Below are positions 49,795 to 53,143 of a stretch of DNA of 64,000 nt, one piece after another (within the stretch, counting starts at the first letter, position 1; each line of letters opens with the position of its first letter). Position numbers and translations under genes: made by a program. Source of the DNA: an uncultured Acidobacteriota bacterium (GTDB lineage: Bacteria > Acidobacteriota > Polarisedimenticolia > J045); assembly GCA_963702425.1 (NCBI GenBank), contig CAVPCQ010000006.1:1-64000 (forward strand), given 5' to 3'. Below the pieces are notes generated by a model. The model worked only from the letters and a program-made list of their open reading frames with translations, ran no database searches and was not told where the DNA came from.

Positions 49795-51334
49795 GTGGGT
49801 GCGGTCTTGCGCGAGGTCGAAGTGCGGGTGCTGGAGGCCCTTCCGCCGGACGGCGGGGCGCTCGGGGTCGAGGATCTGGCGCGCCGCCTGGGGCTCGACC
49901 AGAGTCCGGTGGCGGGCGCGGTCGCGACGCTCGCCGAGCGCGGCCTGGTGACCGTTTCGGAGGAGTCCGAGGACGAGTACCGGGTCGGCGCCGAAGGCGG
50001 CGGGCTGGGAGCGGTTGTGTCTTTCCGGAGCGGCGGGTCGCGCGGGCCCTCGCGGTGGCCGGCGGAGAGGCCGAGATCCCGACCCTCGCTGCGGCCTCGG
50101 GGTTGTCGACGAAGGAGATCGGCGAGTCGCTGCGCTGGTTGACCCAGCGCGGCTGGGCCGCGAAGGACGGCGCACGGCTGCGTGCGACGGAGGCCTGGGC
50201 GGGCGCCGAGCCGGCGGCCGAGCCCGACGAGCGCCTGCTGCAGTTCCTCGTCGATCACGGACCGGCGCGCCGGGCTGCGGTGCTCGACGCCGGCGAGGCG
50301 CTCGATGCCGCGCTCGAGCGCCTGGCCGCGCGCGCCGGGGTCGTCGAGCGCCGCGAGCGGCGCCGGCGGCTGGTCGCGATGACCGTTGAGGGCGCGGCGC
50401 TCCGGGCGGGAGGGGTCGAGTCCCGCCGCGAGGTCAACGAGCTGACCACCGAGCTGCTGGTGTCGGGACGCTGGCGCGAGGTCGCGTTCCGCGCCTACGA
50501 CATCGGCCTGCCCGGCCCGGAGGTGGTGCCGGGCAAGGAGCACCCGTTTCCGGCGGATCCTCCACGAAACGCGGCGGGTCTTCCTCGAGATGGGTTTCGA
50601 GGAGACGAAGAGCCCGTGGGTGGAGTCGGCCTTCTGGGACTTCGACGCGCTGTTCCAGCCGCAGGACCACCCGGCGCGCGACATGCAGGACACCTTCTAC
50701 GTCGCGCGACCGGAGCGGGCGACGCTGCCCGATCCGGCGCTGGTCGAGCGCGTGCGCCGCACCCACGAGGACGGCGGCGACACCGGCTCGATCGGCTGGC
50801 GAACGCGGTGGGACCCGGCCCTGGCCGAGCGCTGCGTGCTGCGGACCCACACCACCGCCGCGACGGTGCGCGCGCTCTACGCCGACCCGCGGCCCGCCGC
50901 GGCGCGTCTTCTCGGTCGGCCCGGTCTTCCGGCGCGAGACGATCGACTACAAGCACCTGCCGGTCTTCCACCAGGTCGACGGGATCGTGATCGACGCCAA
51001 CGCGTCGTTTGCGATGCTGCTGACGCTCCTGACGACCTTCTACCGGAAGATGGGCTTCCCGCGGATCCAGTTCCGGCCCGCCTTCTTCCCCTACACCGAG
51101 CCGTCGGTCGAGGTCTTCGTCTACCTCGAGTCGCGCCAGGACTGGGTCGAGATGGGCGGGGCAGGGATCTTCCGGCCCGAGGTCACCGAGCCGCTCGGCT
51201 GCACCGCGCCGGTGCTGGCCTGGGGCCTCGGCCTCGAGCGGGTGGCGATGTTCCGCTTCGGCCTGTCGGACATCCGCGAGATCTACCTCGCCCACCTCGA
51301 GTGGCTCGAGGAGACGCCGCTGTGCCGATCCTAG
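49795..51334 (+). CDS. pheS: Phenylalanine--tRNA ligase alpha subunit, archaeal/eukaryotic type (apparent frameshifts near 50010, 50545, 50895)
   Basis: Long N-terminal winged-helix-like region, FPER, [64 protein letters not shown]. Confidence 0.93.
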
Positions 51335-53143
51335 GGATCCCGCTCGACGAGCTCTTCGCGCGCTACGGCGCGACCATCGAGCCCGCCGAGCTCGAGCACG
51401 AGCTGCACCGCTTCGGCTGCTCGGTCGAGGGCTGGGCGACTGCCTATCGCTGGCGCTGCCCGTCATGCGGCACGCTCTCGGAAGGGGGCGAGGACGCCGC
51501 GCCGCCGCCGGCCTGCGAGGGTTGCGGGGTCGAACTGCGCTCCGCGGCAACGCTCGGCGTGCCGGCAGGCGAAGTCCGGGTGCTGCGGATGGAACTGCTC
51601 GCCGTGCGGCCCGACCTGTTCGGCCCGGAGGGGCTGGCGCGCGGGCTGCGGGGCTTCCTGCGCCGCGAGTCGGGTGCGCCGCGCTACCGCCTCGAGCCCG
51701 GGAGCTTCACGGTCGACGTGGATCCCGCGCTGGCCGGGCCGGGCGTGCACCGCCCGCGGATCGTCGCCGCGATCGTGCGCGGGCTGACGCTCGACGACGC
51801 GCGGCTGCGCGGCCTGATGAAGCTGCAGGAGAACGTCCACTGGGCGCTGGGCCGCGACCGCAAGCTGGCCTCGATCGGCGTCTACGACCTGGCGACCGTC
51901 GCCGGTCCCGCGCTCTCGTACCGCGCGGTCGAGCTGGACGGCGTGCGCTTCGTGCCGCTGGGCTTCGATCCGGCGCAGCCGCACGCCGCGCTGACGCCGC
52001 GCGAGATCCTGCAGAAGCACCCCAAGGGGACCGCCTACGCCTGGCTGCTGGAAGGGAACACCAGGGCCCCGCTGCTGGCCGACGCGAAGGGGAGCGTGCT
52101 GTCGATGCCGCCGATCATCAACAGTGAGGCGACGCGCGTCACCACCGCGACGAAGGACGTCGTGATCGACGTCACGGGTCTGGCCGACCGCCACATCGAC
52201 AAGGCGCTGGCGATGGTCGTGACCAGCCTGCTCGAGGCCTGCCCCGGGGCGCACGCCGAGACGGTCACGGTCCGGTACGCGGACGGGGCGCGCGTCACGC
52301 CCGACCTCGCGCCGCACGAGGTCGTCCTCGATCCCGTCGCCGCCGGCCGGTTGATCGGCGTGGCGTGGACCGCCGAGGACGTCGCCGAGCTGCTGCGCTT
52401 CATGCGCCACGACGCGACGGTGGTCGACGGCCAGGTGCATCGTCCAGGTCCCGGCGTGGCGCTCGGACATCCTGCATCCACGCGACCTGGTCGAGGACGC
52501 GGCGATCGCTCACGGCTACGACCGGATCCCCGCGGTCGGCCTGGCGGCGGCGACGATCGGACTGCCCGAGCAACGGGAAGAGGACGCCGCGCGGGCGCGC
52601 GAGGCACTCGCCGGGATGGGTTTCCTCGAGGTCATGACGCTCGCGCTGACCTCGGAGGAGGCGACCTACCGCAAGACCGGACTGCCCGACGACGACCGCC
52701 AGGTCACGATCGAGAACCCGATCTCGATCGAGCAGACGATGGTCCGGATCTCGGTCGTGCCGGGACTGCTGGAGACGCTGGCGATCAACCTCGGCCACCC
52801 GTATCCGCAGCGGATCTTCGAGGTCGGCCTCGTCGTGCACGCCGACGCGTCGCGCGAGACCGGCGCCGCGGAGACGATGGTCGCCGGCTGCGCGCTGGCG
52901 GGCGACGGATTCGGCTATGCCGACGCGCGCTCCGCGGTCGACGCGCTGCTGCGCGAGACCGGGCGCGACGGCGGCGGGACCAGCTTCCGCGCGCTCGACT
53001 GGCCGCTCTTCATCCCGGGCCGCGGGGCCGAGATCCTCGACGGGGCGGGGGAGCGAATCGGGGTCGTGGGCGAGGTCCACCCCGAGGTGCTGACCCGCTA
53101 CCGGATGATCCACCCGGTCGCGCTCGCCGAGATCACACTCTAA
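51322..53143 (+). CDS. pheT: Phenylalanine--tRNA ligase beta subunit, archaeal/eukaryotic type (apparent frameshift near 52440)
   Basis: RPDL, QENVH..LGRDRKLASIGVYDL, LSMPPIINS, RSDILHPRDLVED.AIAHGY, GEVHPEVL; about 600 aa, no B2 or B8 domain. Confidence 0.92.

What the first reader, a model, noticed from the sequence alone, without database searches (positions are those of the whole stretch)
49795..53143. Archaeal-type PheRS installed, inverted, at the ancestral bacterial pheST locus
Seen: alpha subunit of about 510 codons with N-terminal winged-helix-like region and [22 protein letters not shown]; beta of about 600 aa with LSMPPIINS, ending at PVALAEITL without B2 or B8 domains. Known: these are archaeal/eukaryotic PheRS hallmarks, in bacteria best known from spirochaetes, and bacterial pheST commonly lies between rplT and zapA. 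Inference: here the pair occupies that slot on the opposite strand with its own -10 box, pointing to in-situ xenologous replacement of an essential two-subunit enzyme.
Basis: partly seen in the sequence, partly recalled or inferred. Interest (0 to 1): 0.8.

Follow-up and report, generated by a model that had tools for sequence, protein, structure and literature searches.

The report
Archaeal-type PheRS swapped in place
An uncultured soil and sediment bacterial order (Acidobacteriota) has replaced its own two-gene phenylalanine-charging enzyme with the archaeal-style version at the same chromosomal spot but facing the other way; this is a clean example of a known kind of gene swap.

Summary
Window 49795-53143 (+) holds an archaeal/eukaryal-type pheS (511 codons read through) and pheT (606 codons).

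They are broken by five single-base insertions that three related assemblies lack. These are most likely local assembly errors, because two more lie in rny and in a spacer.

- In 14 of 14 loci from other families of the same class, a bacterial pheS-pheT sits co-directionally between rplT and zapA/rny.
- In this order the archaeal-type pair sits in that slot, inverted, next to an added RlmL-like THUMP methyltransferase.
- The order is one family of 23 genomes. All 23 carry the archaeal-type beta subunit and 0 of 23 carry a bacterial one.
- In four other acidobacterial genomes that also switched enzyme type, the slot is simply empty (rplT next to zapA). Insertion into the slot is therefore special to this order.

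Trees of both subunits place the genes inside a large branch with 100/100 support. The branch is marked by a four-cysteine insert in the beta subunit, and all of its named members are bacteria. The donor was therefore probably a bacterium, not an archaeon. It is a separate event from the spirochaete transfer.

Earlier notes of this scan recorded the same enzyme branch in other phyla (TA06, Nitrospirota, Latescibacterota). I rate this a new member of a known kind, of moderate interest.

The parts
49795..51334 (+). pheS, archaeal/eukaryal-type PheRS alpha subunit (511 codons read through). It is broken in this assembly by private 1-bp insertions at 49993, 50017, 50547 and 50893.
   Evidence: NF003210 matches on four pieces. 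Insertions shown against L017, L018 and L019. Pfam on the intact relative L019. PDB best hit is human FARSA 3l4g_A at 1.9e-83, against about 1e-41 for bacterial chains.
51322..53143 (+). pheT, archaeal/eukaryal-type PheRS beta subunit (606 codons read through). It overlaps the pheS stop by 13 nt and carries a private 1-bp insertion at 52440. The N-terminal B1 domain holds an insert of about 45 residues with CxxC...CxxC.
   Evidence: TIGR00471 matches at 234 and 175 bits on two pieces. Insert alignment. Four invariant Cys in 12 relatives. PDB best hit is human FARSB 3l4g_B at 4.3e-55.
49688..49794 (.). Divergent spacer between zapA and pheS. It holds TACAAT (49755-49760, + strand, upstream of pheS) and TTATAC (49712-49717; GTATAA on the - strand, upstream of zapA).
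   Evidence: Sequence. Both AT-rich hexamers recur across the 10 aligned rows of the order in DNA of 73% G+C. No full sigma-70 match and no Rfam leader or T-box.
49343..49687 (-). zapA. In sister families it lies downstream of bacterial pheT; here it is divergent from pheS.
   Evidence: NF010724 ZapA at 2.1e-5. Synteny.
53133..54260 (-). RlmL-like THUMP-domain SAM methyltransferase, downstream of rplT and convergent with pheT, overlapping its stop. The exact start was not fixed. Within its class the gene is found in this order and hardly anywhere else.
   Evidence: PRK11783 at 3.7e-53. Pfam RlmL_1st and UPF0020. PDB E. coli RlmL 3v8v at 5.4e-36. Found in 23 of 23 genomes of the order, against 1 of 18 in other families of the class, that one at 33% identity.
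54278..54631 (-). rplT (L20), the conserved left border of the slot.
   Evidence: ORF. Synteny by tblastn.
54707..54910 (-). rpmI (L35).
   Evidence: ORF. Synteny.
54944..56900 (-). thrS. The exact start was not fixed.
   Evidence: ORF. Synteny.

Best explanation
In the common ancestor of this acidobacterial order, the resident bacterial pheS-pheT operon between rplT and zapA was displaced in place. The order is a single family with 12 genera sampled. The incoming genes were a foreign archaeal/eukaryal-type pheS-pheT pair, inserted in the opposite orientation with its own upstream region. An RlmL-like THUMP methyltransferase gene was gained at the same locus, downstream of rplT.

The new pair encodes the cell's only PheRS, an (alpha-beta)2 enzyme with a B3/4 editing domain. 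It charges an ordinary bacterial tRNA-Phe. The genes came from a large branch of archaeal-type PheRS that circulates among bacteria and is marked by a four-cysteine insert in the beta subunit's B1 domain, so the donor was most likely a bacterium. The five frameshifts in this window are assembly errors in a locally error-rich stretch, not gene decay.

Shown: gene type, position, orientation, distribution, absence of the bacterial type, and tree placement.
Inferred: a single event, the route of integration, enzyme activity, and the error nature of the frameshifts.
For: Type. NF003210 and TIGR00471 match the window's pieces. Domain content is confirmed on the intact relative L019. The best PDB matches are human cytosolic PheRS.

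Only copy. In the window's own genome, TIGR00468, TIGR00471 and TIGR00472 hit only this locus, apart from one 28-bit domain match on C16.

Distribution.
- All 23 genomes of the order match pheT_arch at E<=1e-40, 21 of them over the cut-off. G000 and G012 are split into pieces.
- 0 of 23 have a bacterial PheT at E<=1e-45.
- In a draw of 401 genomes of the phylum, only 10 are over the pheT_arch cut-off: 5 in this family and 5 in four other families of other classes.

Synteny.
- 14 of 14 loci from 12 other families of the class read thrS-rpmI-rplT-pheS-pheT(bacterial) followed by zapA and/or rny where the locus reaches them, all on one strand. zapA was detected in 11 of the 14.
- Nine distinct records of the order carry the inverted archaeal-type pair beside zapA. 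Eight of them show the THUMP gene and rplT within 4 kb on the other side; the L020 locus ends 2.9 kb after pheT.
- In G050, G420, G367 and G156, rplT is directly followed by zapA and pheST lies on another contig. In G176, zapA was not found with this query. That makes 4 of 5 acidobacterial genomes with an archaeal-type PheRS outside this order.
- No remnant of bacterial pheST was found in 8 loci of the order.

Trees.
- The order is monophyletic in PheT (99), in PheS (99) and in the concatenated careful tree (100/100).
- It is nested with metagenome contigs L137, L139, L143, L145 and L146 (98/98) inside the insert-bearing clade (100/100).
- That clade also holds a Planctomycetota record, an unclassified bacterium and four other acidobacterial genomes.
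- Sister contig L139 carries a DnaE2-type polymerase at 1435 bits, which marks it as bacterial.

Frameshifts.
- Seven window-private +1 insertions lie between 48999 and 52440, including one in rny and one in a spacer.
- None lies in the flanking 9.4 kb compared.
- dN/dS is 0.15-0.22 for pheS and pheT, against 0.06-0.17 for the neighbours.

tRNA. tRNA-Phe in 19 relatives of the order is a normal bacterial type with the GAA anticodon, A73, U20 and U59. The identity elements are taken from passages of PMC9976931.
Against: - The source reads were not available. The four runs laid were other samples with at most 24% of the sampled words. At each of six insertion sites only one run showed a contig lacking the extra base, and the other covering contigs did not show it. 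The error nature of the frameshifts therefore rests on comparison, not on reads.
- This genome is 91% complete with 5.85% contamination, so a second PheRS cannot be strictly excluded for this one genome.
- In genera g10-g12 (G013, G014, G015), pheS-pheT with zapA and rplT with the THUMP gene lie on different contigs, with at least 5 kb of other DNA between them. The rplT-side linkage is therefore not universal in the order.
- In G006 the full THUMP gene lies 2.2 Mb away and only a fragment is next to pheT.
- None of the 80 metagenome loci of the wider clade has rplT, zapA or rny nearby. No donor with matching flanks, and so no recombination route, was found.
- The inverted orientation means the new genes cannot use the old operon's promoter, which removes the usual selective argument for in-place displacement.
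- The sister relation to Methanothrix is weak (67/56).
- The trees use LG+G4 because the mixture model did not finish, and many rows have deviant composition.
Confidence: 0.8

Rival explanations
1. Two steps and coincidence or rearrangement. The foreign pheST first landed elsewhere and the resident operon was deleted, as in the other acidobacterial lineages. The new pair moved into the rplT-zapA gap later. Alternatively it entered co-directionally and was inverted afterwards.
For: Four other acidobacterial genomes show the state 'slot empty, genes elsewhere'. The pheT/THUMP junction is rearrangement-prone: 0 to 3.9 kb of varying inserts, and it is unlinked in G013-G015.
Against: This route needs an extra event that hits one spacer among thousands. 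All sampled genera share the zapA|pheS junction wherever the contig reaches it. No intermediate state is seen in the order.
Confidence: 0.12
2. The window's copy is a real pseudogene: the five frameshifts are genuine and a working PheRS lies in the unassembled 9% of the genome.
For: There are five frameshifts in 3.3 kb. The genome is 91% complete. tRNA-Phe is also missing from the assembly.
Against: - No other PheRS of any type is found in this genome or in 22 relatives.
- All changes are +1 insertions, with no stops or deletions.
- Two more insertions of the same kind sit in rny and in a spacer.
- dN/dS is like that of the neighbours.
- Same-genus low-contig assemblies G003 and G004 have single breaks at other positions. 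That fits sequencing error.
Confidence: 0.05
3. Direct archaeon-to-bacterium transfer into this order, for example from a Methanothrix-like donor in the same sediments.
For: Methanotrichaceae are the nearest named archaea (42-43% PheT identity). They are sister to the insert clade in the trees (86 in PheS; 67/56 concatenated).
Against: The order is nested several well-supported nodes deep inside a clade whose named members are all bacteria. It shares their 4-Cys insert, which none of the 18 archaeal or other rows shown has.
Confidence: 0.05
4. Chimeric contig or contamination: the pheST segment does not belong to this genome.
For: Contamination is estimated at 5.85%. The error cluster is local.
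Against: The same gene order is seen in 9 other records of the order, from both short-read and low-contig assemblies. G+C is 74%, like the flanks. Bridging contigs come from other samples.
Confidence: 0.01

Closest known systems
Archaeal-type PheRS of Spirochaetaceae (Spirochaeta, Treponema, Borrelia); Andam and Gogarten 2011, PMC3191353 (passages read)
   Same: Both subunits of an archaeal-type PheRS replaced the bacterial enzyme in the ancestor of a bacterial clade and now mark that clade. Subunit sizes are similar: alpha about 510 aa and beta well under 800 aa.
   Different: It is a separate transfer. A Spirochaetaceae PheT (L070) groups with acidobacterial G050 near Bathyarchaeota rows and lacks the Cys insert. 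The passages read give a Thermococcales affinity and do not discuss chromosomal position. Here the position is the point.
Human cytosolic PheRS (PDB 3l4g) and Pyrococcus horikoshii PheT fragment (2cxi)
   Same: They are the best solved-structure matches by sequence: alpha 1.9e-83, beta 4.3e-55 and 3.6e-47. The domain set is the same, without B2 or B8.
   Different: The match to the beta subunit starts at query residue 78-94, so the solved chains do not cover the insert of about 45 residues with four Cys. The host here is a bacterium whose tRNA-Phe has U20 and U59.
In-situ xenologous gene displacement (concept; Omelchenko et al. 2003, recalled, not read; one search did not list it)
   Same: An essential gene is replaced by a distant homologue at the same locus while the flanking genes stay put.
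   Different: The classic cases, as I recall them, keep operon orientation. Here the incomer is inverted, brings its own upstream region, and is accompanied by an extra methyltransferase gene.
Earlier notes of this scan on the same enzyme branch in other phyla (e1-1351073 TA06, e1-1464321 Nitrospirota, e1-3111113 Latescibacterota)
   Same: Archaeal-type PheRS as the sole PheRS of a bacterium. The TA06 note describes the zinc-binding insert. The Nitrospirota note describes a pair convergent to the rplT cluster.
   Different: Those are AI notes on other DNA. Here the before and after states are both seen within one class. I found no T-box.

Membership tests
Archaeal/eukaryal-type PheRS (PheRS-A; NF003210 alpha, TIGR00471 beta) | Alpha subunit of about 500 aa: an N-terminal winged-helix region plus the class II core, scoring better to the archaeal model than to the general pheS model | tested here: met
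   Window pieces score 169 and 143 bits to NF003210, against 143 and 103 bits to TIGR00468. L019 alpha is 511 aa, with HTH models at residues 3-64 and PF01409 at 234-505. No single window piece reaches the 350-bit cut-off because the gene is split.
Archaeal/eukaryal-type PheRS (PheRS-A; NF003210 alpha, TIGR00471 beta) | Beta subunit of about 550-600 aa with B3/4, B5 and the catalytic-like module, lacking B2 and B8 | tested here: met
   The Pfam scan of L019 beta (588 aa) lists only B3_4, B5 and tRNA_synthFbeta. TIGR00471 is over its cut-off in 21 of 23 genomes of the order. The window's two pieces score 234 and 175 bits, each under 282.65.
Archaeal/eukaryal-type PheRS (PheRS-A; NF003210 alpha, TIGR00471 beta) | Phylogenetic placement among archaeal-type sequences | tested here: met
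   Bacterial PheT chains in the PDB score only 1e-19 or weaker.
Archaeal/eukaryal-type PheRS (PheRS-A; NF003210 alpha, TIGR00471 beta) | (alpha-beta)2 assembly and phenylalanylation of tRNA-Phe | not testable with these tools
   No assay was possible and no complex prediction was run.
Insert-bearing bacterial branch of PheRS-A | An insert of about 45 residues in the B1 domain of the beta subunit with two CxxC pairs | tested here: met
   The insert is present in the window and in 42 of 42 in-clade rows shown, and absent in 18 of 18 other rows. P0032 lacks the cysteines and a few rows have an altered pair. C59, C62, C78 and C81 are invariant in 12 relatives. Metal binding was not tested.
In-situ xenologous gene displacement | The ancestral homologue occupies the same slot in close relatives | tested here: met
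   14 of 14 loci of other families of the class.
In-situ xenologous gene displacement | The ancestral homologue is absent from the genome and from the clade | tested here: met
   and 0 of 23 genomes. No remnant at the locus.
In-situ xenologous gene displacement | Replacement in one step at the locus, rather than gain elsewhere followed by a move | tested here: inconclusive
   No intermediate state and no donor flank were found.
Spirochaete PheRS transfer lineage | Shares the origin of the Spirochaetaceae enzyme | tested here: not met
   L070 falls in another clade (100 with G050) and lacks the insert. Only one spirochaete sequence, and only PheT, was available.
T-box-regulated pheST | A T-box leader upstream of pheS | tested here: not met
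   The Rfam scan of 47000-58000 at E<=1 gave only a tRNA and a 6S RNA.

The most novel reading that the evidence does not exclude
The insert-bearing 'archaeal-type' PheRS may be a bacterially spread replacement module that repeatedly ousts the bacterial enzyme. My trees show at least three separate origins of an archaeal-type PheRS within Acidobacteriota alone, at least two of them from this branch.

In this order it may have arrived as one cassette together with the RlmL-like methyltransferase and knocked out the resident operon in a single step. The repeated displacement may be driven by selection, for example escape from a natural compound or non-protein amino acid that targets bacterial PheRS. 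The co-gained methyltransferase may be functionally tied to the new enzyme.
Probability: 0.12. Interest if true: 0.65.

Novelty: new member of a known kind. Interest (0 to 1): 0.45.

Why it matters
- **A natural before-and-after series.** One phylum shows three states for the replacement of an essential two-subunit enzyme: bacterial genes in the slot, slot emptied with new genes elsewhere, and new genes in the slot but inverted. That makes the route of such swaps directly comparable.
- **A clade marker.** The swap is a shared derived character for an uncultured acidobacterial order (23 of 23 genomes).
- **tRNA tolerance.** This enzyme branch works with an unmodified bacterial-type tRNA-Phe (U20, where archaea and yeast use G20). 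This bears on tRNA identity rules and on the use of such enzymes as orthogonal pairs.
- **Practical points.** Marker sets built on bacterial pheS and pheT models may miss these genes (my inference; not tested here). The break pattern also shows a local cluster of insertion errors in an assembly that I take to be long-read.

Tried and rejected
**Reads.** The best public runs held at most 24% of the sampled words, so they are related populations, not the source.
- At 48999, 49693, 49992, 50018, 50546 and 50893, one run each (X4 or X6) had a contig lacking the extra base. Other covering contigs did not show it.
- 52440 was not among the rows shown.
- This does not settle whether the insertions are errors.

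**Indel comparison with same-genus G004 over 62 kb.** There are 185 indels that are not multiples of three, spread over the window. They are unpolarised, and I take both assemblies to be long-read, so this gives no error rate.

**Mixture-model tree.** It did not finish on one CPU and was replaced by LG+G4.

**Relaxed aragorn run.** It timed out and was replaced by the Rfam tRNA search.

**tRNA-Phe co-adaptation: rejected.**
- The order's tRNA-Phe keeps U20, U59 and A73.
- The same sequence type occurs in non-order G033, and a near one in G032.
- G025's locus gave no tRNA-Phe call and was dropped. G034 (unpublished) was left out.

**Other negative searches.**
- Co-transfer of tRNA-Phe: none lies next to pheST in the loci of the order.
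- Donor with matching flanks: 0 of 80 metagenome loci have rplT, rpmI, thrS, zapA, rny, ymdB or xseA within 8 kb. Only L148, itself of the order, has the THUMP gene.
- Remnants of bacterial pheST: none.
- Mobile-element genes at the junction: the inserts are an SRAP peptidase, an M16 peptidase and a sigma-54 activator. No integrase was seen.
- THUMP protein as tRNA m2G6 enzyme (Trm14/TrmN): the RlmL match is far stronger (3.7e-53 against 4.4e-19) and only RlmL-like chains appear in the PDB list.

**Literature.** Four searches listed no paper that, by title or abstract, deals with an archaeal-type PheRS in Acidobacteria or a zinc-ribbon insert in PheRS. The library holds open-access papers only, and supplements were closed.
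Full report
**What is there**

The window is G000:C6:1-64000 of a 5.1-Mb, 42-contig acidobacterial metagenome-assembled genome, 91% complete and 73% G+C. The organism label comes from the record titles of its closest relatives.

Between 49795 and 53143 on the + strand lie two overlapping genes.
- NCBIfam assigns four ORF pieces to NF003210, the archaeal-type PheRS alpha.
- It assigns two pieces to TIGR00471, pheT_arch.
- An intact relative, L019, has a 511-aa alpha subunit with a winged-helix N-terminus and the class II core. 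Its 588-aa beta subunit has B3_4, B5 and the catalytic-like module only.
- The best solved-structure matches are human cytosolic PheRS. Bacterial chains score far lower.

**The frameshifts**

Against three related assemblies (L017, L018, L019) the window has private single-base insertions at seven places:
- 48999, in the rny N-terminus
- 49693, in a spacer
- 49993, 50017, 50547 and 50893, in pheS
- 52440, in pheT

There are none in the 9.4 kb compared on either side. All seven are +1 insertions, and no stop codons or deletions accompany them. dN/dS of pheS and pheT against L019 and L017 is 0.15-0.22, against 0.06-0.17 for rny, ymdB, zapA, thrS and the THUMP gene. Two same-genus assemblies with few contigs, G003 and G004, have single breaks in pheT at other positions.

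I read this as a local cluster of assembly errors. I could not prove it. The public runs available were other samples. At each site only one of the four runs showed a contig without the extra base.

**Only PheRS**

In this genome the pheS, pheT_bact and pheT_arch models hit only this locus, apart from a 28-bit domain match on C16. The order consists of one family, with 23 genomes in 12 genera.
- All 23 match pheT_arch at E<=1e-40.
- None matches pheT_bact at E<=1e-45, while the control found it in the ten bacterial reference genomes.

**The slot**

I compared the window's neighbours by tblastn with loci around the bacterial-type pheT of 14 genomes from 12 other families of the same class.
- All 14 read thrS-rpmI-rplT-pheS-pheT on one strand, followed by zapA, rny, ymdB, xseA and xseB as far as each locus reaches.
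- zapA was detected in 11 of the 14.

In nine distinct records of the order, plus the window, the order is different:
- thrS-rpmI-rplT-THUMP on one strand
- the archaeal-type pheS-pheT on the other strand
- then zapA-rny-ymdB-xseA on the first strand

One of the nine, L020, ends 2.9 kb after pheT without reaching the THUMP gene.

The gap between pheT and the THUMP gene varies:
- an overlap in the window's genus
- 0.8 to 3.9 kb in others, filled by a sigma-54 activator or by an SRAP peptidase and an M16 peptidase

In G013, G014 and G015 the two halves lie on different contigs, with at least 5 kb of other DNA between them. In G006 the full THUMP gene is 2.2 Mb away. No remnant of the bacterial genes was found.

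**Contrast within the phylum**

A draw of 401 genomes of the phylum found pheT_arch over its cut-off in 10. Five are of this family and five (G050, G156, G176, G367, G420) belong to four families of other classes.

Those five also lack a bacterial PheT, and their pheST lies on a contig other than rplT. In four of them rplT is followed directly by zapA. In G176, zapA was not found with this query.

The phylum therefore shows three states:
- bacterial genes in the slot
- the slot emptied, with the new genes elsewhere
- new genes in the slot, inverted (this order only)

**Origin**

A search of 1.84 billion representative proteins gave 852 hits below 1e-30. The best 30 or so are about 600 aa long and align from residue 1. 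Typical archaeal ones are 530-570 aa and align from about residue 86.

The difference is an insert of about 45 residues in the B1 domain with two CxxC pairs. It is present in all 42 in-clade rows shown and absent in all 18 others. Four cysteines are invariant in 12 relatives.

Trees gave the following:
- The order is monophyletic in PheT, PheS and the concatenated careful LG+G4 tree, at 100/100.
- It is nested with metagenome contigs L137, L139, L143, L145 and L146 (98/98), then L152, L165 and L187 (99/99).
- All of these sit inside the insert clade (100/100).

The insert clade also holds a Planctomycetota record, an unclassified bacterium and the acidobacterial G420, G176, G367 and G156. L139 carries a DnaE2-type polymerase, so that sister contig is bacterial. 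Methanotrichaceae are the nearest named archaea, with weak support (67/56).

A Spirochaetaceae PheT with G050, and a Methylomirabilota pair next to Bathyarchaeota, are separate transfers without the insert. None of the 80 metagenome loci of the wider clade has rplT, zapA or rny nearby. I therefore found no donor with matching flanks.

**Co-gained gene**

The THUMP protein matches E. coli RlmL best. It is present in 23 of 23 genomes of the order, but in only 1 of 18 genomes of other families of the class, and there at 33% identity (the 18 include the unpublished G034). Whether it arrived with pheST is open.

**Expression signals**

The 107-bp spacer between zapA and pheS has two AT-rich hexamers. 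TACAAT lies 35 nt before pheS. TTATAC reads GTATAA toward zapA. Both recur in all 10 aligned rows of the order. No full sigma-70 match and no Rfam leader were found.

**tRNA**

This assembly has no tRNA-Phe by aragorn or by Rfam, and Phe is the only amino acid without a tRNA. Nineteen relatives of the order do have one. It is an ordinary bacterial type with GAA, A73, U20 and U59. Two archaeal loci have G at position 20.

Passages of PMC9976931 give G34, A35, A36 and A73 as universal identity elements, G20 for yeast and Aeropyrum, and U20 and U59 for E. coli. The same tRNA type occurs outside the order, in G033. I therefore see no co-adaptation.

**Comparison with what is known**

Andam and Gogarten (PMC3191353, passages) describe the spirochaete case as one archaeal transfer that marks a clade. 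This is the same kind of event in another phylum, from another source.

Four searches listed no paper, by title or abstract, on an archaeal-type PheRS in Acidobacteria or on the insert. Supplements were closed.

Earlier notes of this scan report the same branch in TA06, Nitrospirota and Latescibacterota. I confirmed the insert and the clade on my own data. I did not examine those genomes.

**Verdict**

It is a new member of a known kind. Its value lies in the clean three-state series within one phylum.

Noticed in passing
window 49121-49252 (-): A 6S RNA (RF00013, 48.7 bits against a gathering score of 46.4, E 1.8e-7, partial model 36-151) lies between zapA and rny. A promoter-like site at 49324-49296 (-) lies upstream of it.
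   Followed up: no
window 48999; rny 47496-49059 (-): RNase Y is also broken by a private 1-bp insertion. Its N-terminal membrane-helix piece (ORF 48679-49059) is in another frame than the main ORF.
   Followed up: partly
whole genome G000: No tRNA-Phe is found in the assembly by aragorn or Rfam, and it is the only amino acid without a tRNA. Same-genus G003 and G004 have one, so it is probably unassembled. tRNA-Gly(GCC) and tRNA-Leu(TAA) are also missing.
   Followed up: yes
window 54910-54944: There is no infC between thrS and rpmI (a 33-nt gap), in the window and in all loci of the order. Among other families of the class the gap is either about 600-700 bp, enough for infC, or under 100 bp.
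   Followed up: no
L024/L026 7600-11430; L091 10986-12791; G013-G015 (L243-L248); G006: The convergent pheT/THUMP junction is a hot spot. It holds an SRAP peptidase plus an M16 peptidase, or a sigma-54 activator. In three genera the two halves lie on different contigs. G006 keeps only a THUMP fragment there and has a full copy 2.2 Mb away.
   Followed up: partly
L075, L077, L080 (bacterial pheT of sister families): The bacterial-type PheT ORFs of the sister families are only about 690-700 aa stop to stop, about 100 aa shorter than the 798-position model.
   Followed up: no
L057 (Methylomirabilota), L090 (G050), L070 (Spirochaetaceae): These are further independent archaeal-type PheRS acquisitions without the Cys insert. 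The Methylomirabilota pair is sister to Bathyarchaeota (98-100). Acidobacterial G050 groups with a Spirochaetaceae PheT (100).
   Followed up: partly
window 57024-57095 (-) and 17 related loci: tRNA-Val(GAC) sits just upstream of thrS across the class. It was found in 17 of 25 held loci of the class, and 4 of the 8 without it do not reach beyond thrS.
   Followed up: no
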